Source of the DNA: Catajapyx aquilonaris
Taxonomy: Eukaryota
NCBI GenBank assembly: GCA_000934665.2
Contig: KZ538868.1
Location: 62,001 to 126,000, forward strand
Length of the DNA: 64,000 bases
Reading direction: 5' to 3'
Below, piece after piece: positions 1 to 59,300 of this stretch. The translations under genes were made by a program, and so were the position numbers. The first letter of the stretch is position 1; every line of letters begins with the position of its first letter. The notes under the pieces are model-generated. The model saw only the letters and a program-made list of their open reading frames with translations. It made no database searches and was not told where the DNA came from.

Positions 1-1374
1 CTTGGAACAGTATAGGACACGGATTTGCAGATAGTAGTGAATAGGGGAGTGATGAAGCTCAGAAGGGGTGATTGCTTATGGGGGGGCCTGACTCCCAGTA
101 TATGTCCATGGCAGGGGGGAATAACTATCTATTAGTACAGTATTATATCTGGCGAGGGTCGCATGACTTAAATTTTCACCTCGACGTGAATCCACGCCCC
201 CCTTGACATCAGACCGATTGGAGTCTCTCCCTCCCTCGTTCGTATCTGATAATGCATCTGTATACATATGCATTTGTAAGCGGAGAAGTCAGAGGGTGGA
301 GGGGGGAGCAATCGATGGCCACGTGACAGGCCTGCAAATTGCATTCGGCTAGGGCAATAATCCTCGGAAGGAAAGTTGTCATAAATGGAGAGGGGCAGGG
401 CGACAATGGTGCGGTTGTGCAGAGGTGTAACCTGAGATTGGCGAAATAAAATGGCGGGGTTTGGTGTCTGCAGCTGTATGTGTATATAGGCGGCGCTTCC
501 CTGGCGCCAGGGGCCAACTTAAGCCACTCCATCTCCATCTCCTCACTTACTTATTGATTCGCTGTTTTCAGCGCAGATTACAAGCAGCATGGGATGGGGG
601 GATTGTTGCTTGCGCCTCCCGAGGTGCTCACCCTCCCACCGTAATTCACGGTCTCTGTACTTATTTTACTGGTATTAGACTTACTGCCGTAGTGGCAGTG
701 CATTGCTTTCATATTCAGAATTACCAAAAACTAAGCTCGAGTATTACGGTACGATGGTTGATCATTGTACAATCACGGTTATGAGGGATGTGAAAGTGGC
801 TTTGGAGTAAGAAACGTGGTATCTGCTCTCGGTTTTCCCCTTGCATGTATGCAATGTGTAAGTCAGAGGAGGCTTGTAACTTGAGTAGGAGCCAGGATAA
901 AAGGAGAGGTGTTTTCTTGATTGTGTGATGTAAAAGTTAGAGAGGTCCGTTGTATTGCTACGAGAGAGCGCAATTATCAGAAAAGTAGTGACTGTGCCTC
1001 CATTTTTATATTTAAACCACGTTATTTATCACTATTCTGGCAATAATGCAATTAGAGCGAATTAACATGGGATCGTTTAGGACCAGTGACAAAAATAGCT
1101 GTTTATCGACAATATTGAACTATTGATGCCTTAACAGTAGAGTTTTCCCATAATACACGCAGTTGTAGGCTAAATACTGTATTGTGATAAGAAGAAAATT
1201 GAAGTAAAGTTATAAACTTTTTTGAATATAATATTTTTAAATACCAGTATACGTAAATCATATTGGGAAATAAGTTTGACGAAAATTGTGACTATGACAT
1301 TTAAAATCCATATAATGGATAAAATTAATGTTAATATGTTTGCGTGTGTATATTTCGCAATTGGTTACCACATT

Positions 1375-1828
1375 TATTATTTATTTATTTGCTAACTCAT
1401 GCTGGAGTCATTGGCTCCCTTATAGGGGGGGTGGAATACCACAATTTTTCATACGCATTTTCTGTCGCATTTTTCTCTCCTGTGCAGGGATCAGGATGGG
1501 GATTTGTGAGGAGGGGACACTGTGCACTGGTGCAAGTGCGTTGTCTTTATGTTGGGGGTCGTGTGCAGTCCCCCAGGGGGTCAGGTTGCAAGACAATCCC
1601 CTAGGTGTGGGTCAGAAATCCCCACAGACACCGCACCTCCCCATGGATGGGTCAAGGATAGGAAAGGAAGGGGACGGCTTGTTACCTATTATTTACGGAA
1701 GCGATCCCGGAATTTTCCTGGGAGGACCGTGGGAAACCACAGTCCACAGATAACCACGGTCAGGACTCGAACCCAGGACCTCCTGATTAGCAGTCGGACG
1801 CCTTATCCACTCCACCAACCTGCTCCGG
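1375..1828 (-). mobile_element. tRNA-derived SINE, full length, with 14-nt target-site duplication
   Basis: The minus-strand head GGAGCAGGTTGGTGGAGTGGATAAGGCGTCCGACTGCTAATCAGGAGGTCCTGGGTTCGAGTCC contains an A box (TGGTGGAGTGG), a B box (GGTTCGAGTCC) and a tRNA-Ser(GCT)-like arm GACTGCTAATC. An (AAAT)n-type tail lies at 1375-1390. The identical TSD TTGGTTACCACATT occurs at 1361-1374 and 1829-1842. Confidence 0.9.
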
Positions 1829-2784
1829 TTGGTTACCACATTAAACGCATATTGTTTATTTTAAGGAAATAAGGTTTCATCAATAAGCGTCATGCGTATT
1901 TTACTATTCTCTTCCTATTACGCACAGGGTACATTTGAAATTATCCAGGTTTTAGATGGACAGAGTTTTCAGTTCAAGTTTATATGGGTTTCTTTGTTGT
2001 ATAATATGTGGAATAATGCCTCGCGACGAATGAAACGCGTGGGAATGGAGTAAGAATAAGGTGAATCACATCCGATCACATTTCATTTTTTGAAGATGAC
2101 AATATTATTTTCTTTCTTTTTAGCACATTATTTGAAAATATTGCCCATTGCCTTTTAAACTGCGAATAATAACGCACATCGCAAATTATTATTAGAATTA
2201 TGCTTAAATTGTGTTCGTACCGTTAATATCAGGCATTCCATTTAGAATGCAAATCTCTGAATATTTAAATTCTGTGAATGCCTGACACTATACAATATTG
2301 TCAAATGAGATTGTATAGGCTAAGTGGGAAAAATGGTATTATTACATGTTTGAAAAATAACTATAGGTACTTATTTGAAGTTCTTGAATATCACTGGATA
2401 TGTACAATTTAAACGCTTGTATCCAAAAAATATAGTGAGACACTTGAAAGAGTCATAAACTCGGTTATCTGCATATCCTGAATCATTAGAAATTCACAAA
2501 TCAACATGTTGTTGGTTGCAAGTTTAAAGAGGTGGTTCAGCATTTGAATGAGTGTCTAATCAGTGGAAACAACTGCTTTATAAAAATTCTCGGAAGCTCG
2601 TTAGCTTGTGAGAATAATTATACTTTCCGATGGCGAAATTGAATGATTGCACGCACTTGAATCCAGGGGAAAGGGAGGGCTCCCCATCAAAATGGCCCGG
2701 TGGTGAAGCCGAGAGGGGAAATAGTCGATTGGAGCGCCATCCGGCGAGAGAAAGAAGAAGCGGACGAAGTGGGGGATGGGGGGA

Positions 2785-2804
2785 GGAAGGAAGGAAGGAA
2801 GGAA
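2785..2804 (+). repeat. (GGAA)5 microsatellite
   Basis: Five perfect GGAA units, read directly from the sequence. Confidence 0.9.
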
Positions 2805-5800
2805 GGGGCCCGGCAGCCCGCTCGCGCCATCTCTTCCTCATCGCCCAAACCCACGCGAACCCACCACTGCGCCCTTAGTAGTAGCACGGACGCAGAGAGG
2901 GAAAAGTCGATCGACACCATTACCCAATTCACGCCTGGGCTGCACACCGTCGGTCGTGCAGCCTGGGCCAAAACACAATTTTCAGCATTTTAATGTGCAT
3001 TTTCAATTCAGAAGCTGTTAGACCCATTGTCAAAAAATAACTCTGCTGACCCTTTATTGTACATTGACATGGCTATAATTCGAATATATTTTTTGATCAA
3101 ATGTTTTTGGACACCATATGTATACTATCCAGCCTCTATCTCGACATGGGCAGGCATTGATTCAGGTGCGTGGACCGGGAATGTCAACTCCCCTGAATCG
3201 AGCAAATATAACTTTGTCTGAGGGATGAGTTTGTCTAATGGAGCTTCTTCTGTGTTGGATTTGGAGCAAGGGTGGTGATGATGGTGAAGAGAGTGAGGGA
3301 CCCTGTGGGAGGGTGTAGGACCCGCCCACTGTGCAGGGGCCTGAAATGCGCGCGCAATCTTTGTCACCGGAAGCCACCGCCCCCCACCCACCCACCGGTT
3401 CCCTCCTTCCTGCTAAAATCTCCTCTTCCACCCACAAGAACTCCGCCATATTTTACCCGAGATTCGCTTGCGTGAGGCAGAAAAGGGAGGGAAAAATAGA
3501 GGATATCAGGGAAAATGGGGTAGAAGGGAGGAAAAGGGGGGGACTATGAACATCAGAGTCATGCGCGGCCAAATTTCAATCGTTAATTTTAAATTTAATG
3601 TTAGTACAACCCAGTTCTGAAATTTCCATTCTAAACATTAAATCTAAACAATTTATCATGTAAATAACATTATTAAGAATTACTATTTTTTGTCTTATTG
3701 TTTATTATTCCACCCCAAGCGCCTCCAAGTGGCAAAATGATTAGCGTTATCACTCCATAAAACATGCTTTGTAAATAATCTCCCCTCATCACAACCAATT
3801 GCGGAAATAGTAATGCTGGATGCAAAATGGAGGGCAAAAAGCAAGGAAGAGGCGGTCTGATGACGCTGTGACGTCACTATCTGGAGGGGAGCATTGGCAT
3901 TTATTTATAGGCTGCTTATTCTGCTTTCCTCCCTCTTTCTCCTCCATCCCCCTCTTTTCCCCCCCAGAACCCAGAGGGAATCATATATAAATCAGGGCGA
4001 AGCTGCGAGAGAGGAAGCTGGAACTCTCCCACTGCCTCCATATTGAGTCAAGAAGGAATATTCACTGCATTATTCCAACCGGATGACTCTCAACTCCCCA
4101 GCCCTTTTTTTGTGTTCTCTGGCTGCATTTTAGCTTACAGGTGGGGGGGATGGAGAACTATTTGTCTTTGGGATAACAATCTTAGTGGATTTTTCCTACA
4201 AAAAAATGCACTCTAGAAATTCGCCACAAAAGACTAGTGCTGGGATTGAAAAAAAACCTTTCCTGACTATTGTTTCGTGGCCTATGGAACTGTTTGGAAG
4301 GGGGAAAAAATGGATAGTGGTCGGCAAAAGAATTATTGTTCTCTGATGCGCTTGTTTTCTGACTGGGCTGATGGTTTCACTTTGGGGATGATTCTCATCC
4401 GATCTGGAATGCGTTTGTTTGCCTTATCCTAACTTTTCTGACAAAGGAGTCTGTAAAGAATCCAGGAGCATTTATAGCTGCACTTAAGCGCATCTAAGAT
4501 AAATGCCACAAAACTCTTCCACTTTCGGTCCAGGAAATCCTTGCCCGAATTTGATGAAAATTGCACTTCTTTGAGAATAACGCTTTGTATTTGAGAAGGA
4601 TCGACGCGAAAACAAGCTAAGTTACTTTCCTTTCCTCTTCACTGAAATAGGGACCTGTTTTTAGATGGGAATTGAATAATCACTCGCATTACCGAAATGA
4701 TGCCGGATCTTGTGTAACTTGTGTCATTTTATGTAGCTAGCGGCCTCTGCTAACGTTGCATTTTTGTGTACAACTAAAAGCATACTCCAATCCACCTGAT
4801 AGTGCAGACTACAAATATCTCAAAGTGCATGCAACTTTCCAAATTCCGAACCTAGTTATAAAAAATGTTCATGAACATTGGACATGCTACCGATAATCAA
4901 AATCCTCGTGCAAAGTATATTTTCCCTCCCAGCACTTCTGGAGAGGGTGGGCCTCCCACATAAAAAACGAGTGCGTGTCATAAAAACATTACACACATTC
5001 GGCCGGAAAATGAGGGGTAGCTGGCTTCCCCATTTTGGTCCACTTGAGACAGTTTTTGAAAAAAAAAAAAAAAAAAAAAACTGTGAACAAGAATGGAGAG
5101 TCCCCTTGTATAAGCTGGCACCTGAGGCTGATTTGCGAGCGAATTTAGTTTCCATTTCATTAGCGTTTGGGAGAGGAAGGCGAGGCCGCCGCCTTCCTTT
5201 GTTGCACATTCAGCAGCGGAACAATAAGAGAGTGTGTGCGATAATAAATGGAATGGGTTGGTGGGCTGTGTGTTTGCAGGCAGGCAGCCAGCCTTATACT
5301 TGCTATAGGAAGAGAGGAGGCGGCGGGAAAGAATGGCTGCCGGCGTGCTTGCAGAATGGCCCCCACAAAAAGCCTTTTCTGCCGGAGCCCTTTTGGCCCC
5401 TTTAGAAATTCGGTCTAATTAAGTATTCCATCAGATATTGGTTGCAACCTGCAGCAGGATGTTGGGAGGGAGGGGAAGAGGGGAGAGGAGGAGGAGGAGG
5501 AGGAAAATGAGGCTTGCGCTGTTTGCTTGCCCCATTTGAGTTCTCTTATTCTTTACACCGTTGTCTTTTGTTTTCGCTTCCATTTCCTCCCTTTGTGTGC
5601 TCTCTCTCTCCTCCACACCCCACTATCTAGGCCTCACCTCACCCCACGCAAGAAACACTCCTTGAGTTGGGACTGTTACTAAGGACGCCTCCAGAGTTAC
5701 TTGTTGCCACCTCAACTTTTATCCAAAATCGCGGCCATTTTCGTGATAATTCTAGTTCCAGATGGGAAACCACTAGAGCTAGAAGACACCAAAAATTGCA

Positions 5801-6904
5801 GACTATCACAAGCAATGACGAGCTATGAATAACCTTCGTAAGATGGCGTCCCTTTAAGAGAGACTCTATAAATGGCTTCTGCTATAAAAGTTTCTCGGCC
5901 AAGAATGGCTGAGCAGATGCAATTGTAAGCTGCAGGGAGAGATAAAGAAAACGAGGTGATTGCGCGGGTGGAGTGGGTGGTAAAGGGGGGTGCACTTTCT
6001 TGCTAACGACTCAAGCAACTGCGCTAATCGGCTGGGAGTTACGACATAATCGCAGCCTTGGATTTCCCGCCTCCTGCAGTCGATATTCTCCTGCCTGGAA
6101 ATGAATCGCAGTCTCAAACCCGTCTCACTAATGATGTTTATTACCTGCGCCGCCATAAACATGCATTCTGAGGTCCGCTTATCGAGGCCTCAATGATGAT
6201 GATGATGATGGGGGTAGTGGTGGTGGGGAGATGATAATGTGGACTCTACCAGATGGAAACTTGATTTGTACTGTACAGTGTATACCCTATACACTATAAC
6301 CGCACGTTCAGAAAAAATATTGAGAGAAACTTTTCCTATGTCGTTAACAGAATTCTTGAAAAGGGAAGAGTAATAGCGTATCTAATCTCTATTGAAGCAG
6401 ACACATGTAGTACCGGTATACAGTATATGTAGGCCTATAACACACATTGGGGGCATTAGTCTCATGCCTTCCAAATGCTTTTCTTGCACTGTGTAGCATG
6501 AAACGGAGGGTTTAAACGTGTCGTAAGGTGAGTTTCGCCGGAGCATATCTTCCAGAATATGAAAGCAGAAAATGAGTAACCGATTTATCATGTGTCTTAC
6601 CTGACTTGGAGAGTCGAAGGGACTGTGAATCGCCCGAACTGGCAGACTGGTAGCTTTTGGTGGATAATCCTGGAGAAGAGAGAGAAAATGGTCAGAAAAA
6701 ATATGAAAACAAAAAGCTGTATTTTCACAGGCATCGCATCTGTGAATAGCCAGAAAAATGTAGAAATATACAACTGGAATATATATTTCGGTTTTCACCA
6801 AAGTAGGTTATGTCTATTAGTTCATTATGATGCAAGTGTAGCATTGTCTTTACTTTGGATTTTACACTATTTATGGGCAAGTTACTGATCAATTCTCAAG
6901 TATA

Positions 6905-7257
6905 CTGTTGGATCTCCGTATATACTCGTACCAACGAGAAAATCAATCCAGGGCCTTCCGCGGGATACCAAAATACTGGTACGTATATATGCTCAACTAT
7001 ATGGCGTAGTAAATGAATATAATCTATACGAACATCCTCCGTATACTTTTAAATTATCTCTATAGATCACTTATAATACATAATACATTGTAAATTATTG
7101 GTAAACAGTTGTTATTCTGTATCATATAGTGATGCTCTGCGCGCTGCAAATTCCAGTAGTGCTTTTCATATTATTATTTTTCAAAATATTTTCGATCCGC
7201 GTTTGGTTGAATCCGCGGATATAGGCCTACAAAATCCGCGGATAACGAGGCCGACAG
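6905..7257 (+). mobile_element. Tigger/pogo-type (TcMar) MITE resembling MER2
   Basis: TA-flanked, with imperfect terminal inverted repeats (ta-CTGTTGG...CCGACAG-ta). Internal blocks GGATACCAAAAT, ATGGCGTAGTA, ACATCCTCCGTATACTTTTAAAT, ACTTATAATAC.TAATACA.TGTAAAT and AATATTTTCGATCCGCG.TTGGTTGAATCC match the MER2 consensus as recalled, in the same order. Confidence 0.8.
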
Positions 7258-9049
7258 TAAAGGCCTCCATATCAGGAACTGTATCTTCTCTGATGATAAA
7301 GTAGGGCTATAGTTGAATGTGAACCTGTGAAGTGTGACCAAAGATATAATAAAAGACGAGTTAACCTTTTGGAATTGATTGTACGTAACGTGATGTACAG
7401 CTTTAATAATTAACTGCACATTTCTTGCAGACTTTTCAAGTCTGACTTGCAAGACATTTATCAAAACAGAAAGTGCAAGCAAGGGCTTTTATTTCCTTCT
7501 TCTCTATATACTATAGGCCCTACCTATTTTCACATGTTTCTGCCCTTGAAATGGTGTGCTATATAGCCTTCAAAATTTAGTGGACACATACTATTTACCT
7601 TTAATTGAAGATGGAATCAAGGGAATATTTTCCTTTAAACCAGCGTACTTTAAAAAAAAGTAATTGTTATTGTATTCCATATTTTCTGGACCATCCGTTC
7701 GCATATATACACGACTCTTCACCAAACCGTATAAAGACATCCCAGCTCATACACCAATTTTCCAATTGTCTCAGGAAGAGTTCGAGTCAGTTTCCCTCTG
7801 TCCTCACGTCTCCTCCTCCCATAATGACATCCCCCATTTGTGTGACTCCAAAAGTCGCCAAGAGAATCGATGTGAACTTGCACCAGCTCCGGGCACGCCC
7901 TACATAAAGGGGCAATGTCTCGCATTACACTAATAAATGAAGGTTTTGCTTCTCATCGTCGAGTTAATGACAAGACGGGGAGGGAAGGAGAGGCAATGAC
8001 ACTCTGGCAAAACCTCTTCTCTGCAATGAATCGTTTTCTCTCGGCAACTCTTCTTCCTCTAGCCCCACTCTCTCTCTCTATGGGTGCGTTTCAGGGGGGG
8101 CTGGTGTCGTTAAGTCTTATCACGTGGGTGGAGGGGAAGAGGAGGGATTCAATTTTCGAGAGCCGCAGGGCGAGAGATAGAGGCTGTCGGGTATCGGATG
8201 CCGGGAGTTGGGGGGCGAATGGTGCAATGGGGGATGGTGGGGGTGTATCGAAGAAGAAAATGGCGGAAGCAGGAAGGGAGGCAAACAGCTCGCAGCCTAA
8301 TCTGAGTCGGGCGACTTGGTCAAATTGGCGGAGATAAGTGCGGATGGAAGCTGCGTGGAAGCCCATCACGTCCCCCAGGCCCTACAAGGCCCTTTTTAGG
8401 ATGGGGGTGGGGGAGGACCTCCCCCTCCCTCCCCTGATTGAAGCCTGGCTCTCACTCAGCTGCCAAATGGCCGCCGGCGAAAGGGATGGATTCAGATATA
8501 ATAATAATATGCAGCGCTGGGCTGGATACGACGTGACGAGCGGCTAATCTGCAGTCTGGAGCCTCTCGCACAGCTTTATGGAGCCGCCCTTTTGCATGTT
8601 GAGCACCTCTTTATGGCTGCCCTACCCCAGGCAGCCAGGCTTGCTGTTTACTGGGCCAAATCACTTCTCCCCCCTTTGCTATACTAACCTCCGTGCTATG
8701 CTCAATCCCCGGACTTCATGCCTGCTGCTAAATGTTAGCTGCCGAATATATCTCAAATCTCTAGACCTACCATAAAGGCAGTGCAAGTATCGCTTGCTCA
8801 GGCGGAGCAGTCCTTGTCCGGATAAGACCTGCTAATCTTTGCAAGATTGTACATTCGAAGTTTAAGTGCTGTGGCCAACCGTTACTACAGCACTACCAGT
8901 GTTTGTTCTATTTATCTATTATTGAATTATTAATAAGCTTCAGGATCACATTTTCTCACATAGTTGCAGGAGTGTATACCAACGTGCAGGGCACAGTGGT
9001 AACTGGAGGCGACTATATAAAATTAATGGGCATATGCAACAATGTATCG

Positions 9050-9500
9050 CCATGTTATTATTGCTAATGTTGTAAAAAGCCATTCCTCTCGCCAGGGAAA
9101 TGGTACCCCATTCTTATAGTTCAGATTTTCTCTAAGACTTGTATCCTGTCTTGAAGTGTACTTTGAAGTTAGATGAGAAGGCATTAAGAGATAAGCCTTG
9201 CTTTTACCCAATAATCAGGATGGAGCAGAGTAGTAATCTTGGCTCCCTCGTCGCCATCTTCTCCACCAACTTTATGGAGGAAGTATCGACTTTCAATTAA
9301 AATTCCCTACCAGTGGCGCGAGTCCATGAAGCCGTGAAAAGAAGTTGGGAAGTTGCTTAGACGGCGCTTCATGGGGGTGAGGATAATATATCCAGGTAAC
9401 TGAATGCTCATATCGATTAAATATTAAAGTTCCTTTATCCAAGCTGGTGTGTAATCATAAAAAAATGCTGGAGAGAGTGATGATAAACGGCATCCGATTG
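9050..9500 (+). mobile_element. Possible highly degraded reverse-transcriptase relic (Penelope-like)
   Basis: Fragmentary translations (SCLEVYF; DGA..GSLVAIFSTNFMEE; VPLSKL) loosely echo the PLE RT motifs CL..YF, G.AMGSPLSP..ANFFME and LPFLD. There are many stops and frameshifts, and boundaries are approximate. Confidence 0.3.
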
Positions 9501-12500
9501 TTTAAAAGAGAGGGTCCAGGTTCCTGCTAGGGTTTGCAGTGATTATCTGCTTATCTCTTGCCACCTGTCCATTACCGTTGAAAAGGATGGATGTCATTAA
9601 AATTTATTGTCTGCATCTGCCACACACACCTCATGAACTCTACAGCCGATTCACAAAAGGCCACGTTTGCCTCATAATAATTATTGGAACGAAAATATTA
9701 CGGCATAAATTGCGATTTTCTAAACCGGCAATTATTAGCTGCATTACCCGGTGTGGAAAAATGGCTTCGTACAATAATTACTGTGGGACAGTTTTATGAG
9801 TCCCGATAAATTTCCTACCTTCACAAAAATGCAATATATTGTAGTATTTTATTGCAATAATAACACTATTTTATAGCCTCACGATATACCTGCACTGATG
9901 CAAATCTACAGTACGTTGGCTCACACTTTTTTGTTCATTCGTGAGGTTTCACGACCCCGCCATGCAGTACTTATTGCTTATGAAAGAATGTCCGGTGTTC
10001 GTGCATAACTAATTGGGCTCGGTAATAGTCCGAATGAGTCACAGGTGAGAGGTTAAAATGGGAGGCTTCTGGCAGCTGGCACATCAAGCTGGATGACGGA
10101 TCTTGTGCCTACGGGCCCAAAGAGACTTTGATTGACCAAAGTGCTGACACTTTGTCTACTCATCAGTTGGGCCACACCGAACATCTGCTCATCATTACCA
10201 GTTGATTCCTCCCTCACGATTATTCGCTAGATAATAGTGATTGGAGGTCGGACGAATCGGGGATTTGCTATTAATAATGTGTGGAGGAAAGGTCCAATAT
10301 GATGCGCACTATTGCACGTTGAACAAATAATATTGTTCTTTGTATGTGATCACTGAAATTGATATTTTCTGGTCTTGTTTGCCATTATCGATGCTTGAAA
10401 ATGTCCTTCAAATCTAGATATCAAAGTATGATATGCTAGTTCTCTTATACTAATGACACCACATTTTCATTCAGTATTGATGGTAGTGTCTATTTTTCCG
10501 GAAACTTCATTTTACTTACTGCATCCGGACTCTTCAGAGCACAATGCTATCTTCTTAAATCCTAATTAATACATAATGCAATCAATAAATCATAGCCCTT
10601 ATATCGCCCAAAAACTGTTGACATTTGTGCCTCATCCAGATCAATGGCATCTAAACCGGAAACCGAAATAATAGAAACCCCCCCCCCCCTGCCCCCANAT
10701 AGATGAAATTAGTAATTGCTGGCGAGTAAGGAGTGAGCAAACGAGACCCGTGACCTTTGCCCCCCGTGATCGTCCAGGTGGAAGCAATCGAACGATAGGT
10801 CGATGAAAAATACATTTGGCCGCACAAAGGCAAGCACTCTAGTGTCAGCGAGGACAAGCCCATTGGACCTTCGTGCAGATAGATCGCAATCTGATTTATG
10901 TCGTGACCCGCTTATGCCTTCTTCTCAAACCCAGATCATTTTTTGACCCAACCCTTGTTCTTCTCATCCGTCCCATGCATTATGCGCCAGTGACGCATCA
11001 GCTTCAAAAATACATGAATTGCCAGACAATTGACCCGTTACAATCAAGCGCATGCGTGTCCAAAAATTGAAAAAAAAAAAACGTATTTTTTTTGAGTATT
11101 TTTAGCAAGAAGGGTGGAATTGAGGGGGAGCTTTAGGGGAGATTGCAAAATGTGCAATTGCGCCACGTCGCACTAAATATTTCCCAGACAAGTTTAGACT
11201 GTTTCATGCAATATTGCGGCACGAAAGCGACGGCTGACGCGATGCCAAGTTTATCTGGCCAGTGATTGGTCTGTCATGCGAAGGAAACACAGGGAGGAGG
11301 AGAATTATGGGGGACCCTCAAGTATAAAGTGGGGGAGACTTTCCATGACTCTGAGAGGTATTTAGGCGGATATTACGGATTATTTTGGTTATGGCTAGTG
11401 TTATGTAAGAATCTGACTCACCGCTTTGGGATCCACCAGGTTGATGGCTGGTCCCTGAGTTTTTGTCGCGGCCTCCAGATGATTCGGCACCTGGTCAGGA
11501 GAGAAGAGAGAGATGGTCAGGGGGTCAGATGGTTGTAGAATATCACACCATTCGCAAACTTGGAATTTATTTTCCAGGAGACTAACAATGCAAAAAAAAA
11601 TCATTCCATTTTTTCTAGACATTCACATATTTGTAAGAATTATAAGGTGAACCTACTCTTATTGAGAGAAGGGATGGGGTTGCCGTTCCGACCATTTGTA
11701 TTTTTGTCGACCACACAGGGTGAATCAATACTCAACCCCCGCAATCACTACTACTTAGCATTCATCTGGCACTTCCACTGATCACTTATCACGCTCCGGG
11801 AATCACGGGTTAACTCGGCTGCTTGTCATAAACCATGTGTTTCATTGCTGCATTCGTCACTCCTCTCCCTCCAGTACATGCGCAGAGGTCAAATTTATCC
11901 GCATTATTATGAGTTATTACCGAGGATAATGGCGTAATCTTCATTATCAGCACTGCAGGTCACTGCTTCAAATGAGGTGGTAATGCGTTTCTGTAGTTGT
12001 TACTGTACCTTGCAATATATTGTCCTTATAAAACAACATGCTGTATTTACAATTCCCAAGCTCGTAACAATAACACCTCATGGCACATTATTGACGTCAA
12101 GGCCTGTATTTGATCTCAGGTTAAACGAGGTGACCATCCTTTTTATGTGCCCACGCGTGGAAGTAATTGGATACAAGTGCGACCCTCCCCAGGTAACAAA
12201 AGAGTTCCCTGAATGAGATGATGATGGAGGTGAAGGCCGTAGAAGGCGTGGGCGTTGTGCCCAAAAAAGAGGAGACAAAAGAGTGGCGCGTGCCCAATTG
12301 ATTTGACCTGCACACCTTTTTGGCACACACCATTTCCTCTTTTTATTGGACGACGGCCTGTCCCTTAGATGCTCGTGTCTAGAAAAGTGTGAGCAAGCAA
12401 GACTTGATGTTTCTGGTGCTACTAGTTGCGTTGGTACTTGTCCCTATATATATACACACGTGTGTCCCTGGGTAAAGGTTGAGTAGTGCGCCTGCTGGGG

Positions 12501-13810
12501 GACCCCTTTTGTGTTTTGGCGATCGATCACATAGCTGCATTGTCATCCCCCCGGACCCACTTCCTCACGCCTGGAAATAATAATACTGTGTGTCGTTGTG
12601 TGTGTGCACACGCAGGTTGCTTGCCTGCACTCTGGCTTTAAAATGTAGAGTGCATTTGGCTCATTACATGTGTGCGTGGCACTTTGCACTTATTTCAATA
12701 GCGTGTTATAATTATGCAATATAGTCGCTGCTTGCGTTTCATTTTATGGGAACAGTGGCATAAATTTGGATATGCGAATAATGTGACAGTGAGTTGTGAT
12801 TTATTGTGCATTTGAATAGCTTACGTGGCCAAACATATGTTTTGCAGCCATACCTGTCACAGCCACGATTTATGTTTTGGCATTTAAATTGTTCCCATGA
12901 AACATGCAGTTAGGTACTGACCAGTATGACAATATAATCAACGCGTTAATTACGAGCAATAAGTAGTGAGCTGTAAATATGCTGCAGTTATTCAATATAC
13001 GAGTATGCGTCGAAATGACTATGCATATCAGTAGTAAATTCAGCTATTTGGCCACATGAATGGTATCAGTTTTTAAACTATATTCAAATGCCAGTTGTAT
13101 TGCAGTTGCGTAGGGGGACAACATGGATCATTATTTCGATATGGCACCGTGAGACCTGTATCCATGTACATTCCCGTTGCATGTTCAATGGAAAGAAGCG
13201 ACACAAAACCATGCATCAGAAGTGAGTCAGGGATCCAGAAAAGACGGATGACAATGTTATGCATATGCGCTCATTGGCCGGGTGGAGGGTTGGTGTGCGG
13301 GCAGTTCATCATCATAGGAAGGTGGTATATGGGACCCGTGGGCGTGGGAACTGCAGGTCGGGGAGAGAGCGTCTTTTGTGGGGCCCAGAAAAGGAGGAAG
13401 CGGCAAATGAGCAGGGCGGCAGGCCAATTGCCAAGGTCCATCAGACCGTGACCTGCTACTGCTGCCCATGGTTGCTGCACCGACTCGTCCCCATCCATGA
13501 ACCCCCATCATCCCTCCATACATACACGAGTATTCTATGCACGCCAGTCACTCTTCCCCTTCCAACTTTTTCCCCTTCCCCTATAGTGATGGGGCCCACC
13601 ACCACCGCCTTACTTGTTTGCCTGGAATCAAGGGCCCAATTAAGTCCTTTGTAGGACACGATGCGTGTCAAAAGAGCAGCCTTAGCGTTTCAACATATTT
13701 TTCCACTCCCCTCCTGACTACATGGACATTTAATACCCCCGCTTTCAAATCAACCAGTCACGCTGTTTGGACGAAGCAACCACTCATTGCACTCCACCAC
13801 AGTACGAACC

Positions 13811-13811
<1 letters not shown>

Positions 13812-13871
<60 letters not shown>

Positions 13872-13890
13872 GTGGTGGTGGTGGTGGTGG
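13812..13890 (+). repeat. Compound microsatellite (ATA)n followed by (GGT)n
   Basis: About 19 ATA units then about 6 GGT units, read directly. This explains the poly-Y/I/L ORFs in the track. Confidence 0.95.
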
Positions 13891-15732
13891 CGACTTGTAC
13901 TGTGCATGTCCCCTTCTGTAAGGAGATAAAAAAAGAAGGAAAGTAGTCCGATAGAGAGCGAGGGACGAGGTAAATGAAATGAGAGGAGATCCCCGCTCCA
14001 TTTATCTCCATTTGGGCGTAAAATGGCGGCGATGTCCTGGGAGCTGACGAGCATGAAACTTGGCCTGAATGGAGGCGCGCAGCATCTTCATAGGGAAACA
14101 ATTTGTCTCCCAAAAGTCCCTTCGACAGCATCCCCTCCCATCCCTGTCTAATAAGGAACCCATCTTCGTGCTACCCTAAAGGACTCCAGAGTATCCATCA
14201 CCCATCCCTTGACACAAGGGTCTAAAACCCTCAGCTTTTTATCAGGGGTTGTTGATAAAAAGCCTTTTTTTTCAACCCTAATTTTGCAAGTACCTCAATT
14301 ATTGCGTGGTTAACTTTCGTGGTCAGTGCAGCAGACTTCCTCTGCAAACATGCAGGCCATTTGTTGCATGTTAGTGCGATTGTATTATTTAATCCGGAAT
14401 AGAGTTACGCAACTGAAAAGCCTCGTTCTCCTTGCAAGGCAGTCCGAATAATAGGGGCAGAGCAAGGTGTTTTTTCCTCGTTAGGTGCGTGATGATTGCG
14501 TGAAGAGGGAACGATACTTGGTGAAAAGGAAGGAACGGAGGAAGGAAGGAAGCATAAAATGTGGTCTTTCGTGCCGGGAAAGAAGGCAAGGGTTAAATGT
14601 CCACAAAAGAGGCGGTATAAAAACGAAGCCCTTATTTGTAGAGGGACTCATGCTTCAATGTGCTGTACTCCATCGTAGTTATATGCTCTAGTTGCATGCG
14701 TCTCATGTTCATCTAATTCGGAAGCCGTGATTTGTACTTTCCTCTTACATTTTGCCTTAACGACATTTCTCTCCCAGTAGATTACACTCTTATCTGCCAT
14801 ATATTCTATAACCACGCCCATCTCCACCTTCAACTCCACTGAAGGGCTCCTAGTTACATCTGCATTATTTCGCATGCACCTGCCCTGGGTTAATCAATGA
14901 ACGGTCATGCACTTGTTCGTTTTATTCACTGCAATTCAAATAGTTATCACACATACAAAATGTGATAACAGTCTCAGTTATTGCTGCACGGGCTGTTCAG
15001 TGCCACTCAGGGGAAAGTGATGTTACATAAGCGTATTATTTGTATTATTATTGGCATTTATTATTATTACGTATTATTAAGCATTTTTCCAGATCGACTC
15101 ACTTTATACCTGATGAATGTTTGTGCTGAGAAAGTATAGACTACTTGTGCTGTCATCGTATGGTATTAATAATGCAGCTGGCTACAATAAGGCTCACCCG
15201 TTTCTGTTAGAACATTTTTGCCGTATTAATCAGACACTTTGGAACAGTTGCTTGTAGCAATTACAAAAATTAACTCCTAATATTATACATGTGGAACAAA
15301 CGGTTTAGCCTTCAAGGGGGGTTCAAACAATGGCCTCAGGTGACGTGGGTCAGAATGGATAATTTGCAATGACTGCCGATGCTCGAAAGTTCAGTGAAAT
15401 TCGTGGCCTGCGTGATTGATTATCTCCAATATGAAATTAGAAAGTAATGGATTGACTACCCATAAAGTCACTGGAAACTATAGCGGCTCTCTTCAGCAGA
15501 AGAGTACCGATATATTGCCATTTATCGCTTGTACAGTACCTATTTAAAACTTATGCAGTTGAAAATATTATCTCCAGAATTCAGCAATATGGTGACTTAA
15601 ATAGGCTATGTGTTGTAAATCACTAGGCATATTCGAAAATGCCTCATCATTTGTTAGAATCTTATACAATAAAAGCTATGTTGACTGAAATAGTCATTTG
15701 AGCACATAACACCAGACGTTGAGGTGAAATCC

Positions 15733-15853
15733 GGCAACTGCCAGCGACATTTTCCGAAGCGGCAGAAGAAGGAATCGGAGATAAGCATACTTCAAGCATG
15801 GGCGAGCAAGATTCCTTCTTCTTGCGCTTCGGAAAATGTCGCTGGCAGTTGCC
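15733..15853. mobile_element. Palindromic MITE core, same family as 60056-60221
   Basis: Arms GGCAACTGCCAGCGACATTTTCCGAAGCG... and ...CGCTTCGGAAAATGTCGCTGGCAGTTGCC form an inverted repeat. Both arm and spacer sequence are shared with the 60056-60221 element. Confidence 0.75.
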
Positions 15854-17784
15854 TCGATATATGACCAGAACTGTACCTGTTGTAGCCGTTTCATTGGTGG
15901 GGCTAATGAAGAGTCGGATTGAATGAGGCGTAAAAATGAATGATGAATGATAATAACCACTGAGTGTGAAATGATTTGCTGTTCCACATGTGCCTTGGAG
16001 AGCAATTTATGTGCATGTCAGTACACCGCAGTAACCTTTCAACTTTCCTGACGAGGTCGACGGGAAGGAGGCGGTAATTGACAATGACTTATGATGACTG
16101 GGAGGAGCCACTTGTCATGACGTACAAGAGTGGTGGCCCCTGCGTGGCCTCAGAAAGAGCCTTAGAGTGTGGGTGTGTGTGTGTGCTCCTCATGTGGTGT
16201 GTCGGTGTGTAAGTATACTGAGGGGTGGGGGGTTGAATGAGGGATGGAGGCCTTGGGCAAGCGACGCAGGCACTTTGACCTGCCTCCTCCGTGCAATCTG
16301 GCTTGTCCGTGCTGCCTGATTAATTGCTACTTGCACGCATTTCAAACTCCACATTTCGGTCTTTGTGGCCCCCTCGCGTGACCCTTGACCACAACCCACC
16401 CCTCTGCTACAAATCGCGCCCTCTCATGTCACCCCCCACTTCACCGGAATGACACCCAGCCCAGAAAACTCTTCGAAAACACTGAAATGGCGGATAGTTG
16501 ATTCACCTTTTTTTTACATGGTGGACCGGACCATTAACTACAGATTCCCCTCCGATTGTCAATTAGCATCTTTCCCCTCCCTCAGATTATGCATGCAGAA
16601 TCATGTCAGTTCCCAACCATCATTATTCAACCCCTACTCTCCTACCCTATCCCAGCTGCATAAACTTGGTCTCATTGATTAGCGCCACGTGGGAGCAGCT
16701 TGTAATAAGCCAGATTCAATTTGAGTTGACCTCTTGGAGATGCAAGGTGCAAAGAGTGTGAGGGGGGGGGTACCCCATTGGCCGTACCGGAAATTCACGT
16801 CTGGTTCGCTTTGGAGATAGATTATTATTCGCGCAGTGATGTTGGGCAGAATGGTGTGCGCCAACTCCTCCTCCTGACGCTGCGTGGTCTGCGCCTGCCT
16901 GGATGACTCATGATGCCAGGTATATTTCAGGACAATCGGATGTGTCCCGTGGTAATGATATCAACCAGAGAATAATGACCTGCACCATGCGGCGCAGTTT
17001 TCAATGCTCTCTGCCTAGAAGCGATCTAATATTTGTCTTATGTAGAAGCCACCATATGCTACTTGCCTGGAGTTGGATTAAAATACTGTACTTTTTTTTA
17101 AATCGCATATTGACTTGGAAACGTCAGAAATCAGTAGACCTTTACAAAAAGGCAAAACTTACTGTTAATCCAACCTTATCCTCGAGTAATTTCCAGATTA
17201 ATTTGCTGATTCTTTTTGTCTATAGGAAAGTATATTGCGCCGTTTCAAATATTTGTTTACGCCGTTTACGTCGTTCTAGGAAAATTGAATGGTGTTGCAT
17301 GCAAATCTGTCATTTGTTTTCCTGGACTTTTAATATTGCAGAGCGTATCACGCAGGCTGCCTTCTCTCACAAGTCAGATCTTTACCGCCTATTAAGTGGT
17401 CACTTTAGTCGGAACCAAGTGTCGCTCTTTGCTCTGTAGTTTCCACTTTAAACGAGAAGTTTTTCCTTAATAATGAGTGAAAAATGAGTTTTTACCACTG
17501 TAAACCTAAAATAAGTATAAATCGGATTTTTCACTTTTCACGTGAAAGTTAATGGTAGTTTTAGTGGGGAAAGCTTAATATATGAGGAAACCTAACGAGA
17601 GTGTCCAGTAAAGGAATAGTTTTTATTGCACAGTACGCCAGTAATGTTCAACTGAGACTTTCAGAAACCCTGCGGATGACCTGAAATCCATTGACAGATT
17701 CATAATAATCAGTTCATCGAAGATATGTGAGAAAAATCTATAGGGTAATTCAACTAAAGCCAAAATCAAGTGGATATTGTAGTT

Positions 17785-18987: not shown

Positions 18988-19871
18988 TTGTAGTGCATCT
19001 TCATTATGAAAAGAGTAACACGCTCTATATTAATATATGCAAATATATACAATTTCATTCCTTCATTAATAGTTCCAAATGATCAAAAAAGAAGGCGTTT
19101 GGTAAACCAACTGGGAAATTGCCACCACCCGAGGGCACATGTTATAATGAGGCCTTCTGGGAGAAAAATAGCAATCATCAGTTAGCGATGAAAAAGAAGG
19201 AAGTGAAGAATTCATATACAGTAGTGTACGTACCTCTTGGAAAATATGCGCATTTGTTCTTTCCAGAGTGTGAAATGTCTTTTAGGAGCAATATTTGGAA
19301 ATGCCCAAATCATTACAGGAAACGCAATATCCTCACTCGACCCCGTTATATTTTGCTTTGTAAGCCTACGTGAGAATGGAAATTCACTTTTCTATAGTAT
19401 ACCGTTAGTCACAACCTTAATTATAGCTTTTTTAACCACAATGCAGGCGGCTGTTAAATTGTTGCGACACGTGATATTACATTTGAAATATTCTAAGAAA
19501 ATCTGTGTGCGTGATACACTTAAATTTTAACAGCACTGGGCATCGATCAGGGTTATATCATTTTATTATTATTTGTAAAAATCTGTACTGACTACAGTGG
19601 TTTGTATGTTTTCATCTTGCGTTTGTTGTGAGACAGCCCCCTGTATGGGTTACTGGCCTTAGAAGCAAACTAACATTTACGTCATTTCCTTATAAAAAAG
19701 GGATGTTGTCAGTGCTGGAGGAGAGCCAAGTCGAATAATAAAAATAGGTTGAAAGCATATCACACATTCGTTGAAAAAATTAAATGCGATAAAAATACGA
19801 CAGTATACACTTACACGCGTTTTTTTGTAAGCGGGTGATGAGGAAGAGTGAGTATAGGAGAAAGAACTGAC

Positions 19872-21664
19872 CATTAGCAGAGGTGTGTCTCTTGTCGTTG
19901 GACGATGAGTTGGGAGATGCAGAGGAGTTGTTGTTGTTGGTGTTGCTGGTGTTGCTTCCGCTGGTGTTGTTGTTGTTGGCGTTGTTGGAGGCGTGGTGGT
20001 CGTCGTGTGTGGCGGGGGGCGCCGGGGAGGGCCGAAGGGGGAAGCCGTTGAGCGCGGTGGGGGTTGCGAAGGAAGAGGCGGCCGATGCGGAGGAGGAAGA
20101 GGCCGAAGAGGAGAGGGCCAGCTTGGCCTTCTCCACGCTCTGCTTGAGTTGCTCGAAGGTGGAGACCCCGCAGGAGACGGGGGCCAGGCCGGAGAAGCGG
20201 TAGGCGCACCCGGCCCAGTCCCCCGGGGTCGACCCGGGGCCTCCCGCGCCCCCTCCTCCAGCCCCGTCGGCCCCAACCATCGCCCCTGGGCCGCCCACCA
20301 TGCCTTCCTCCGTCTTGATGTTGACCCCCATGCAGCCCATCCCCATCCCGACCCCGACTCCCATCCCCATCCTCTTCAGCTCCAGAGCGCTTTGGTACGA
20401 GCAGGACGAGTCGTACCCAAGGGGGCTCTGTGGAGGGGCCTGCCCGGGGCCCGCCCCTGCTTCCATCAGCCCACGGCGCTTTCCTCCCACGCCTCCGCAA
20501 CCCACCTCCTGCAATGGGGGACAAATCAAAACAGAACATTACCAAGTAGGCCTATATACAGGAGCCGAAGAGAGATTGTTATTGACGCAATTGGCCAGAC
20601 CAAGTAAATCCTACTTCTACTTGCCGTATATGACTGGTTTAGGTCAAGTATGTGTATGATTACTATGATAGGAAACTACATCCGAAAATTTGCAATGTTT
20701 CAAATTACAATGGGCTAATGGCATGCCAAACGTGCGTATATGGTCGTTGACAAGTGCGAATTTTGCACATTACATACACACCTGTTCTTCACACTGGAAT
20801 TGATGGTTGTCTTTTCTATTAAACCTGGCATGTAATACAGCTGGTCAGTCAATATCAAGCAACTACATCAAATTCTAAATGATTCATTCAAGTCATTCAT
20901 CAAATCCCGTGCGAATAACCGGTTGAATTCCTGTTAGTAAGATAATATTTGAAAGCTTCAGATCGCAAGCACTGAGTGCGTCCCGTGCGAAAGGGCGTGA
21001 AGATTACCACCTGCACATAATTGAAATGAATGTGACGAGGCGCTTGCTCTCCCATCACACTCATCACCTCCCCTCACGGGGCTTTTGGGCTTTGCTTTCA
21101 CACGCCAAACCAGGAGAAGGGGTGCTGGAAAAGGCAGGTGAGCATCCAGGTGAGAGAGCACACTTATTAAACAAACACGGGGAGCACGTATCCTGCATAT
21201 GCATATTCTGTTTGGCAGCAGCCCAGCCTCAAAATGTCTCTCATTTACTCTAAATTCAATATGCCCCCTCCGATTGTAGTTTGTTAATGGGTTTGATTAG
21301 TTCCTGGCGTGCAGGTCTGTGCGGAAATCCTGTCCAAACTCAGATTTCAATTTTACCGGCACGAATTGTGAGACTGCGGGACATGATGAGATCTGATATA
21401 GTGATAAGGATTTGAATGTTCAGGGTACTAGACTCTGGGAGGGTTACCATGGCAGCTCGGCCACTAGATGTCGCCAATGCTTGATTCGCACTGTCGACAT
21501 CTAAAGACCTGGGAATTGTTGCGATACGCACCATTCCGTCGAGTAGGGCAGCCAGAGCTTCCCTGCGGGCCTGCAGCTGAGAGGCTGCCCGGCCCGCCTC
21601 CAGAGTTGCCCGATCCAGTGCTGACTCCACCTGACCCACCACCCTCAGCCCTTCTTCCCACAAC
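19872..21664 (-). CDS. Ets65A: ETS-family transcription factor (D-ETS-3/Ets65A, ERG/FLI1-like), N-terminal exons only; gene continues beyond the left edge
   Basis: Exons 21664-21532 (LWEEGLRVVGQVESALDRATLEAG...DGM) and 20508-19872 are joined in phase 0 with canonical AG/GT sites. The motif YDSSCSYQSALELKR...IKTEE resembles the recalled Drosophila Ets65A N-terminus (YENSCSYQTALDLKR...VKTEE), and TFEQLKQSVEKAK follows. The exon ends at a phase-1 donor (G|GTCAGT). No PNT or ETS domain exon was seen in 1-19870. Confidence 0.75.
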
Positions 21665-56300: not shown

Positions 56301-59300
56301 TTTGTACAGGAAGGTGCACTGCCCAAGTGCCTAGTTTAAAAGGGGGATATGAGAAGAAATTATGGACTGTTTACCACAACAGCCATTTTAAATAGATGCA
56401 ACAAGGGAATATGGCCCTGGGTTTTTTCTTCCAAGAGGTTGCATCTTTTTTAACAGTTTGCTGCTGTAAACAATTCATATCTATTTTCCTTACTTGATTT
56501 TGAACTGTGGGACTGAGGCATTGCATCAGTGTAACTTTGTTGCAATATATGTAGTTAATAATAAATATTGGACTGTAAATGAGGTACTTACCGAAGAGCC
56601 TCAACCTCTTCCTCCTTTTCTGTAAGGCGGCGTTCCATGTCATGGCGGTACTGAGCCATCTCAGCAGACATGCGTTGGGCGCGTTGCTCCTCTGCCTTGC
56701 GTCCCTGTTTTTGCAGAAAGGCATAGGTAACTTAATAAATATTCTAACTAGCAGAGTTGTCTTTCTTAAGTAGAAGGAAAGCTACTGGAAATTTTATAAT
56801 AACAGAACATAATTATAATTATTTTTGTACCACAATTTTGCTGATTTCCCCTTTCATAGGGAAATGTCATAATGTGCAAGATATTCCCCTGACATCTGAC
56901 ATGATTTTAAAGGCTCCAGAATTACAAATGATGTAGGTATATGTTTGGCAACTTAATAGTAGTAGTAGTAGTTTGGCCTGTAGGACCTTCAAAAAGGTTG
57001 GGTCAGCCCTCTAAACTAACTTGAATTAATTACTATTTACGATGTTTTTTGTTAGAATGCACTTACAGCTTCAGCCTCACGGTAGGCAGCAGAGAGCTCG
57101 TCACGCTCATTTTCCAGGCGGCGGCACTCAATCTCCAGCTCATGGTACTTGCGGGTGTAGTCTGTCAGCTGGTTCTTGGTGTCGTGCAGGTCGTCTGTGA
57201 GCTTCTTGTTCTCCCTGGCCAGGGCATCCTTGTGCTCACGGGTCTTGTCCAGTTCGTGGGTAATCTGAGTGAGCATCTGGGTTTTGACGCGCAGTTCCTT
57301 TGTTGATGTTTCATAGAGAACAGTCAGCTCTTCCAGCTTGCTGCGCAGGTCGATAGTCAGCCTTTCCAGCTGCTCAGATCGCTTCTGCAGTTCCCTGGCC
57401 GTGTTGTTAGCCTTCTCCAGGTCGATGATGAGGACCTCCACCTCGCTCTGGAGGCGAGACTTCTGCTTTTCGAGGCCACCCACTTTGGCCATCAGGGCTG
57501 AGATGTGCTCTTCCTGTTCAGTGAGGCGGGCTTGGAACTTGCGGCGCATCTCCTCCAGCTCTTCATGGCGGGCATGGGCCTCAGCCTCATACTTGGTCCT
57601 CCAGGCCTGCACATCCCCAGTTGCCTTCATCAGCTGACGCTCCATGTCCAGGCGAGCCTCAGCCTCCTCCTCCAGCTGGACACGGACGGACTCCAGCTCC
57701 AGCTCCACCGTGTGCAGCTGACTCTCCAGGGTGCTGCGGCGCTGGAATATGACAACAGAAAATGAAATTGACATTGTCAAGCTTTTGCTGCAGCTAGTTT
57801 TCAAGTCATAAGGAGGGACTCCATGCCGCATGCTTAAAAAAAAGGGAAACTTGGTGTTGAGCTGGCAGAAGTAAGGAGTGTTTATCCAATTAGTCTATTG
57901 ATTCATTAGGTTACTGCAGAAATGAAATACTGATACGGTGCACTACCATTTTATGTTGGAACCACATGACAGACCATTTGTTGTCCCTTACATTTTTACT
58001 TGCTAGTTCATTAATTACTTGTGCCATTGTTGAATTTTTTGTGAATTTTTTTTTTTGCTAATTGAACACTACATTGGAGTTGTTTAAGACACTTGGAATG
58101 TAGTGTCCTGTAACATTTGTGTTGAGACCAGTAAGAAAATTGTTAACTTTTGCAGTAGTAATCGTCATAGTAGTAGTAATGCATAAGTGCAGGGCTCTAC
58201 TTACACGATCCTCATCCTCCAGGCGGCGCCTAGCTTCCTCCAACTGTGACACCACTTGAGACCTCTGGTAAGTAATGTGCTCAATGGATACCTTCAAATC
58301 CTGAACTTCCTTAACCAGCTCGATGTTTTCCTGTGGAAATCATGCCATGTTAGCAGACTGAGCAAGATTGGATACAGGCTTACTGGTAACTCACTTGGGA
58401 GATGCGGGCCTTGATATTGGTGATGTCAACAATGGTGCGGTTATACTCCTCAATCTTGATGTTCAGCTCATGAACATGGATCTCCAGTTTCTCAACCTGT
58501 TTCACTGCAACCACCTGAAAACATGTTGGAAATCAGTAAGATCAGCAGGAATCAAGCAGCTAGGTCAGGCTTACCTTCTCCTTGTTGATAATCTCAACCT
58601 GTGAGAGAAGCTCAAAGACTTCCTGCTGGAACTTGGTCTTTTCCTTCTCTGCCCTAAAATGAAAAGATTTTTAGCAAATTTTCCTTGTTTTCATTTACTT
58701 TAAAGAGCACTGATCCAGAACAAAGCTTTTGGGATTTTCAGTGTCTAATAAAGAGGGTTTGGCTTCTGATAAGCTTGACTTTGCTATGCTACGGTATTTT
58801 TTAAATTTATATATATATATATATATTGGTTAGACCTAGGGCATTCTCAGCCTTCATTTCCACTTGTTGAATGTATCAAGTGTTCACATTAGTGCATGTC
58901 AAGGAATTGGCCATACACTTTGTTATGAATCACACATGACCATTAAAAGGATCTAATACCGGTATCTCTATGAAAATGATTATGCATAATCGTGACTAAT
59001 CACTATCAGGGACACAATTCATAGGCATATGCAGTAGACGTAGATAAATACTTTTGGTAGTGTTCAGTTCACACATAATTACTGAATATAATCATATACT
59101 TGGATGGCCAAAAAAGATGTCTGATGTATGCATTCAATTGTGGAGCCTGGTTTCTTGAAAAATATTTAATTTTGTGAAGTGGTTTTTAAAGTTATGCTTC
59201 TTAATCACCATGCCAATATCTGTGCTGCTGCTTGTGTTAAATTGCTACCTAAATGAAGAGCTGTTTCTTTGATTCTTGTTCGTCTCATTATTTTGAACAG

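What the first reader, a model, noticed from the sequence alone, without database searches (positions are those of the whole stretch)
6905..7257. Arthropod MITE closely resembling mammalian MER2 (Tigger): candidate horizontal transposon transfer
Seen: a 353-bp TA-flanked element with TIRs. Recalled: its internal, non-coding blocks follow the human MER2 consensus nearly collinearly, from CCAGG..CGGATACCAAAAT through ATGGCGTAGTA, ACATCCTCC.GTATACTTTAAAT, TACTTATAATAC.TAATACA.TGTAAAT and AGTTGTTAT.CTGTAT to ATATTTTCGATCCGCG.TTGGTTGAATCC. The length is also similar. Inference: nucleotide-level similarity of non-coding DNA cannot survive vertical descent since the protostome-deuterostome split, so a shared horizontally moving Tigger lineage is implied. 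The flanks are continuous with arthropod intron sequence, which argues against contamination.
Basis: partly seen in the sequence, partly recalled or inferred. Interest (0 to 1): 0.7.

Follow-up and report, generated by a model that had tools for sequence, protein, structure and literature searches.

The report
Old Tigger-type mini-transposon, arthropod intron
A dead 353-base jumping-gene remnant in an intron of an arthropod gene is one of about sixty old copies of a family tied to a transposon lineage that this genome shares with mammals and lizards, which points to ancient transfer between distant animals, although the direct match to the human MER2 repeat could not be computed here.

Summary
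The element is real: 353 bp, TA on both sides, worn terminal repeats, inside a ~28-kb intron of an arthropod D-ETS-3 (ERG/Fli1-type) gene. It belongs to an old non-coding family matched on 63 contigs. The consensus is 336 bp and median divergence 26%, with nested longer forms. Contamination is very unlikely.

No mammalian MER2 sequence was available from any tool, so the MER2/MER2B match remains recalled, not tested. Indirect support was computed. The family's ends resemble those of Tigger7-like transposase elements (5 of 80 metagenome loci, 61-66% identity). The same genome holds a Tigger7-like ORF whose best named relatives are elephant (68%), dugong, opossum and lizards, against 48% for the best near-full-length named arthropod, in a tree that conflicts with host phylogeny. 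That ORF lacks the family's ends, so it is not shown to be the parent. No read test of the junctions was obtained.

Tigger transfer between arthropods and mammals is already in print (PMC9219625). This scan noted MER2-like copies four times before in this genome. Verdict: new member of a known kind; transfer likely, unproven.

The parts
6905..7257 (-). Non-autonomous Tigger-type MITE copy, short subtype. Strand is given relative to the inferred transposase direction: the right end is the 5' end.
   Evidence: Orientation: the family's left end matches the 3' ends, and its right end the 5' ends, of transposase-bearing relatives.
6903..6904 (.). Left TA target-site duplication
   Evidence: In other copies TA lies at 21 of 29 left ends and 16 of 22 right ends, against a TA frequency of 6.7%.
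7258..7259 (.). Right TA target-site duplication
6905..6923 (+). Left terminal inverted repeat, decayed. It begins CTGT, as do both ends of copies L129 and L130; most copies begin CAGT.
   Evidence: 14 of 19 columns match the right end, 3 gaps
7242..7257 (-). Right terminal inverted repeat
7210..7244 (+). Subterminal 12-nt direct repeat (7210-7221, 7233-7244), a likely transposase-binding repeat (inferred)
   Evidence: family D1; a related pair of motifs is in the family consensus
19871..20507 (-). Upstream coding exon of the host D-ETS-3 (ERG/Fli1-type) gene, ending in a GT donor. The element lies in the following intron; the next matched exon is at L145:1410-1466 and the ETS domain at L147:1718-2420.
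   Evidence: tblastn E 2e-10 to Periplaneta D-ETS-3, 3e-12 to Nilaparvata
57052..57894 (-). Paramyosin exon on the same contig (context: fixes the host as an arthropod)
   Evidence: all 5 species-named hits among the 120 listed are arthropods, best the wasp Copidosoma at 68%

Best explanation
It is a dead miniature inverted-repeat element. An autonomous Tigger7-related transposon lost its coding interior by deletion. The remnants, about 336 bp plus longer nested forms, were cut and pasted into TA sites by the parent's transposase acting in trans, giving at least about 60 insertions, and have decayed neutrally since. This copy sits in an intron of a developmental transcription factor gene and kept its CpGs, while copies in housekeeping genes lost theirs, most simply through methylation-driven deamination in this host. 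The parent lineage most likely reached this arthropod and placental mammals, where it left MER2 and MER2B, by horizontal transfer, probably through other hosts. Direction and date are unknown.

Shown: family, TA duplication, decay, native location, weak end link to the Tigger7-like clade, and an amniote-like Tigger7 ORF in the genome. Inferred: trans-mobilisation, methylation as the cause of CpG loss, and transfer. Recalled only: the near-match to MER2/MER2B.
For: - Family on 63 contigs. Of 72 loci hit by the profile, 52 were distinct sites.
- Consensus 336 bp. PMC1914374 supplement rows give 345 for MER2 and 336 in one row, 345 in another, for MER2B.
- Median K2P 0.26, range 0.14-0.34, 24 copies, 13 CpG-like sites left out. 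Human MER2 and MER2B medians are 18.5% and 19.2%, mouse 28.1%.
- CpG: 20 in 315 bases here (O/E about 1.65) against 0-8 in each of 24 copies.
- Family profiles hit the ends of 5 of 80 metagenome loci at E<0.01: 5 of 17 loci with at least 48% protein identity to L077, 0 of 63 below, and 0 in the reversed control.
- L077 ORF: 373/547 identical to an elephant KRAB-Tigger protein. It falls in a 20-row clade (100/99) that mixes afrotherians, opossum, lizards, a fish, a shrimp and a whipworm. AU p=0.03 against vertebrate monophyly and p=0.018 against the two arthropods together.
- Human TIGGER7 blocks printed in PMC9219625 Data S1 agree with it by eye.
Against: - No MER2 sequence was aligned.
- No parent was found: 60 HTH/DDE loci and 26 further loci show no family ends except one neighbouring fragment.
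- L077 itself has no family ends, so it documents a second, related lineage only.
- The end link is weak (61-66%). L162 and L165 share identical ends, leaving 4 independent loci, and the 48% cut was chosen after seeing the data.
- AU groups were named after seeing the first tree. The clade's inner forks are unresolved, no starred set places L077, and three rows have long branches.
- 68% protein identity alone does not exclude vertical descent: the host ETS domain is 95-97% identical to vertebrate ERG.
- The host mutation rate is unknown, so ages cannot be compared.
- No read test of the junctions.
Confidence: 0.75

Rival explanations
1. A native Tigger7-clade MITE whose likeness to MER2 comes only from constrained ends in an old, widespread lineage that persisted vertically or through much older transfers. 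No special link to mammals.
For: Related elements from other hosts share 61-66% identity at the ends with this family. Tigger is reported from 325 animal species (PMC9219625). PMC9004415 passages argue that patchy TE distributions can reflect loss.
Against: The tree of the related transposase conflicts with host phylogeny. MER2 was active near the divergence of mammalian orders (PMC1914374 passages).
Confidence: 0.13
2. The recalled MER2 match is wrong or belongs to another mammalian family; this is an ordinary host MITE.
For: No tool returned MER2. Motif searches found no MER2-like sequence in full texts or in four papers' supplements (one search gave only unrelated rows). Rfam gave nothing for the element and only hairpin chance hits for other copies.
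Confidence: 0.08
3. Mammalian contamination or a chimeric join.
For: No read test of the junctions was obtained. The four runs that hold the stretch may be the assembly's own source.
Against: Exons of one arthropod gene flank the copy. Copies lie on 63 contigs, pairwise only 64% identical (12 copies). 20 of 56 loci share another repeat directly with the window's contig and 37 of 56 are linked to it through non-family repeats. Host repeats are nested inside several copies. One copy was duplicated with its flanks into four contigs. All four runs hold share 1.00 of 136 sampled words of 6400-7800.
Confidence: 0.02
4. The copy has been exapted as a regulatory element of the ETS gene, which is why it kept its CpGs.
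For: CpG O/E about 1.65 in an intron of a developmental transcription factor gene
Against: It differs from the consensus at 17-18% of paired sites and has many indels. Its flanks also have a relatively high CpG O/E (0.69, near the top of the range 0.19-0.73), which suggests an unmethylated region rather than selection.
Confidence: 0.04

Closest known systems
MER2 and MER2B, mammalian non-autonomous Mariner/Tc1-class (Tigger-type) elements (listed in PMC5753468; counts in PMC1914374 supplements)
   Same: Length (336 vs 336-345 bp), old and non-coding. TA duplication, terminal repeats and interior sequence agree by recall only.
   Different: About 60 detected sites against 8,377 and 2,224 in human. 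The arthropod also has longer nested forms. Sequence identity was not computed.
Tigger7 / MER44 lineage of pogo-superfamily transposons
   Same: Family ends are homologous to the ends of Tigger7-like elements. A Tigger7-like ORF is in the same genome.
   Different: End identity is only 61-66%, so the parent is a sister lineage and not those elements. The MITE has no coding remnant.
Reported Tigger transfers between Eutheria and arthropods (PMC9219625)
   Same: Same family and same pair of host groups
   Different: Based on coding sequences of other Tigger lineages. My 6 end motifs and 2 peptide motifs had no match in its supplement; its protein file is trimmed to blocks.
Mariner-1_Tbel and Mariner1_BT, mammal-insect transfers (PMC3517439, abstract seen)
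   Same: Cross-phylum sharing of a Tc1/mariner-type element, dated by the authors to about 100-69 Mya
   Different: Those are mariner elements with consensus identity above 95% computed; here it is a non-coding Tigger-type MITE without a computed mammalian alignment.

Membership tests
MITE of the Tc1/mariner-pogo type | TA target-site duplication | tested here: met
   Both sides here; 21 of 29 left and 16 of 22 right ends of other copies, background 6.7%
MITE of the Tc1/mariner-pogo type | Terminal inverted repeats | tested here: met
   Consensus 20 of 24, first 12 perfect; this copy 14 of 19 with gaps
MITE of the Tc1/mariner-pogo type | Short, non-coding, dispersed copies of uniform length | tested here: met
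   336-bp consensus, 63 contigs; no ORF of 110 aa or more over the element
Tigger (Tigger7-like clade) | Ends homologous to a Tigger transposase element | tested here: met
   Weakly: 5 of 80 loci at E<0.01, 61-66% identity, correct ends, reversed control empty
Tigger (Tigger7-like clade) | Autonomous parent with the same ends in the host genome | tested here: not met
   None among 60 plus 26 transposase loci or by walking inward. Searches score only the best candidates, so absence is not shown.
MER2 / MER2B | Full-length sequence match to the Dfam/Repbase consensus | not testable with these tools
   No consensus held; motif searches of papers empty
MER2 / MER2B | Consensus length 336-345 bp | tested here: met
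   336 bp (uncertain by a few bases at a T-tract) against rows in PMC1914374 supplements
Horizontally transferred TE | Element tree conflicts with host tree | tested here: inconclusive
   Met for the L077 clade (AU p 0.03 and 0.018, groups named after the first tree); not testable for the MITE itself
Horizontally transferred TE | Element divergence below neutral host divergence (dS) | not testable with these tools
   No mammalian DNA for either element
Horizontally transferred TE | Patchy distribution among host relatives | not testable with these tools
   No related genomes are held
Horizontally transferred TE | Native, not contaminant | tested here: met
   read-level junction test not obtained

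The most novel reading that the evidence does not exclude
The miniature elements themselves are shared. The arthropod's short form equals MER2B and its long forms include MER2, with the same deletion points, so both MITEs travelled with their parent in one wave that reached an arthropod and several placental lineages at about the time of the mammalian radiation. The arthropod's richer deletion series would then help reconstruct the ends of a parent that, by my recall, is not known from mammals. The amniote-like Tigger7 ORF would show that this lineage exchanged Tigger elements with amniotes at least twice.
Probability: 0.3. Interest if true: 0.65.

Novelty: new member of a known kind. Interest (0 to 1): 0.45.

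Why it matters
MER2 and MER2B left about 10,000 copies in the human genome (8,377 and 2,224 in PMC1914374). A near-identical family in an arthropod would show that they entered mammals from, or alongside, invertebrate lineages, and would give a second dated record of the invasion. The test is one Dfam alignment with a consensus that can be rebuilt from the loci listed here. The kind of event is known (PMC9219625, PMC3517439), so the gain is a specific origin story for a common human repeat, not a new mechanism.

Tried and rejected
- Read support for the junctions: no result obtained, so this stays open. The four holder runs come from one study, may be the assembly's source, and are not independent support.
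- Rfam: 0 hits for 6800-7400. 21 hits on 20 family loci and 17 on L026 are all below gathering score. The alignments shown are hairpin-driven, so they were rejected; the mir-4703 alignment was not displayed.
- BLASTn of copy L009 against plasmids and phages: no match. Viral contigs with alignment A1: 0 of 29 candidates.
- Search for a printed MER2 sequence: full-text motifs 0; supplements of PMC9219625, PMC3378579, PMC7386202 and PMC10162687 gave no MER2-like sequence. Cells over 400 characters are cut in PMC7386202's table, figures are not held and bioRxiv supplements are closed, so a sequence may have been missed. PMC1832089 is not held.
- Search for a report of MER2 outside mammals: searches showed none in their listings. 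Subscription journals, Repbase and Dfam are not covered.
- Parent search: PF03221 (39 matches), PF03184 (60 matches), P0122 (27 matches) and inward walks found none. The family fragment next to the L038/L071 transposase points away from the ORF and was rejected as its end.
- Atlas look-up of the upstream exon was uninformative (best 0.82); tblastn settled it.
- PDB search of the paramyosin exon gave only myosins.

Full report
Observation. Window 6905-7257 is 353 bp with TA on both sides. Its terminal repeats are worn: 14 of 19 columns with 3 gaps, and they are not among the 7 inverted pairs. The claim that they follow human MER2 is recalled. No tool here holds that consensus, and motif searches of full texts and four supplements found none.

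Family. The element as query found 6 other copies. Copy L005 gave 29 matches and copy L009 gave 41 matches from 40 scored of 79 candidates. Together, matches fall on 63 contigs, a lower bound; four of these are one insertion duplicated with its flanks. Twenty-four short copies give a 336-bp consensus with a TIR matching at 20 of 24 positions. TA lies at 21 of 29 left and 16 of 22 right ends. Divergence from consensus is old: median K2P 0.26, range 0.14-0.34, without 13 CpG-like sites, and 12 near-complete copies are 64% identical pairwise. The left and right parts of the window copy (315 of 353 bases) match this consensus at 82% and 83% of paired sites, far above 300 shuffles each. Longer forms (L005, L011-L015, L023, L035, L109, L135, L140, L142) keep extra interior of at least two kinds, which I read as a nested deletion series from one parent (inferred).

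Location. The copy lies in an intron of the minus-strand D-ETS-3 (ERG/Fli1-type) gene. The exon at 19871-20507 ends in a GT donor and matches the N-terminus of insect D-ETS-3. Further exons lie about 28 kb and 40-48 kb downstream. A paramyosin exon on the same contig has only arthropod species among its named hits (5 of 120 listed). None of 107 ORFs of 62 aa or more in 1-19,700 had a Pfam hit. Of 56 family loci, 20 share another repeat with this contig and 37 are linked to it through non-family repeats. Contamination is therefore very unlikely, although no read test of the junctions was obtained.

CpG. This copy keeps 20 CpGs in 315 bases; 24 other copies keep 0-8. Of 50 flank ORFs scanned (of 262 found), 9 from 8 loci hit families such as UBA1, ZNF598, Nramp, Piwi and ZER1. 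The simplest reading is deamination in methylated gene bodies and escape in a developmental gene (inferred; no methylation data).

Parent. Sixty loci around HTH_Tnp_Tc5 and DDE_1 matches (the best 30 of 39 and 30 of 60) and 26 loci show no family ends, apart from one neighbouring fragment. One ORF, L077:829-2481 on contig C1465, stands out. Its best hit among 147 is an elephant KRAB-Tigger protein (373/547 identical), with dugong 66%, opossum 63% and lizards 61-63%. The best near-full-length named arthropod is Palaemon at 48%; a bee protein reaches 53% over a third of the length. Human TIGGER7 blocks printed in PMC9219625 Data S1 agree with it by eye. The contig is native: it carries a MATH-BTB-like gene cluster (named from the translations by my own knowledge) and shares a repeat with the window's contig. 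In trees of 88 rows (83 of the 120 listed hits plus 5 host ORFs) and 33 rows, L077 lies in a 20-row clade (100/99) mixing mammals, lizards, a fish, a shrimp and a whipworm. AU tests reject vertebrate monophyly (p=0.03) and the arthropod pair (p=0.018). The groups were named after the first tree and the inner forks are open. L077 carries no family ends.

Link between MITE and clade. Of 80 metagenome loci encoding relatives of alignment A1, 5 have ends that match the family profiles at E<0.01, at 61-66% identity over 87-152 nt. All 5 are among the 17 loci with at least 48% protein identity, none among the other 63, and the reversed control is empty (Fisher p=2.6e-4, but two loci share identical ends and the cut was chosen afterwards). 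The window's left end corresponds to the 3' end of those elements. The MITE thus belongs with a sister lineage of Tigger7.

Mechanism. An autonomous Tigger7-related element gave rise to internally deleted forms. These were moved in trans by cut-and-paste into TA sites (established for the pogo superfamily; inferred here) and then decayed. Transfer between this arthropod's lineage and amniotes is the best reading (0.75), resting on the computed L077 result, the end link, the length agreement and a recalled near-match. Direction, route and date are open.

Known work. Repbase lists MER2 and MER2B under Mariner/Tc1 (PMC5753468, passages). PMC1914374 places MER2 near the divergence of mammalian orders (passages). 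Its supplement rows give 8,377 and 2,224 human copies at 18.5% and 19.2% median divergence, with rows for chimp, rhesus, cow, rat and mouse and none for the two sheets I infer to be dog. PMC9219625 (text parts 2-4 of 7, supplement part 1 and searches) already reports Tigger transfer between Eutheria and 31 arthropod species. PMC3517439 (abstract) reports mammal-insect mariner transfer. I saw passages only of PMC7325037, PMC9004415, PMC8277862, PMC3378579 and PMC2836564, and supplement searches only of PMC7386202 and PMC10162687. No listing or 81 described a MER2-like family outside mammals; Repbase, Dfam and subscription journals are not covered. Four earlier notes of this scan describe MER2-like copies elsewhere in this genome; they are not independent evidence.

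Verdict. A real, native, old Tigger-type MITE family. Horizontal transfer of its lineage is likely, but the MER2 alignment remains to be computed. New member of a known kind; interest 0.45.

Noticed in passing
L077:829-2481 (+), G000:C1465: Single Tigger7-like transposase ORF, open for 666 codons, 68% identical to an elephant protein, without visible ends and with changes at conserved sites. It sits among intronless MATH-BTB-like genes. Possible domestication, and the best computed transfer candidate in this genome.
   Followed up: partly
P0121: An elephant protein annotated as a zinc finger isoform joins a KRAB domain to a nearly whole Tigger7-like transposase; lacertid lizards show similar KRAB-Tigger fusions (P0148, P0149).
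   Followed up: no
L026:1175-1447 (G000:C757): A family copy carries an internal inverted duplication of about 130 bases, forming a long hairpin that draws chance miRNA hits.
   Followed up: partly
L035, L103, L106, L108: One long-form copy duplicated with kilobases of flank into four contigs, 81-96% identical.
   Followed up: partly
window 6905 and 7257; L129, L130: Both ends start CTGT instead of CAGT in these three copies, suggesting a subfamily with a changed terminus at both ends.
   Followed up: partly
L255-L256 (G000:C1465): Cluster of at least six intronless SPOP-like MATH-BTB reading frames (named from my own knowledge, not scanned).
   Followed up: no
PMC1914374 supplement file 10: MER2 and MER2B rows exist for primates, cow and rodents but not for the two sheets inferred to be dog, and cow has more MER2B (5,535) than MER2 (1,919). 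This is either patchiness within mammals or a library effect.
   Followed up: no
window 31324-57894: Dense gene block: DUF3689 (TRPC4AP-like by recall), NUDIX_2, BRCT and paramyosin exons.
   Followed up: no
L072, L073 (G000:C290, C709): Two similar pogo-type transposase ORFs (508 and 418 aa) and several other long open pogo ORFs in this genome.
   Followed up: no
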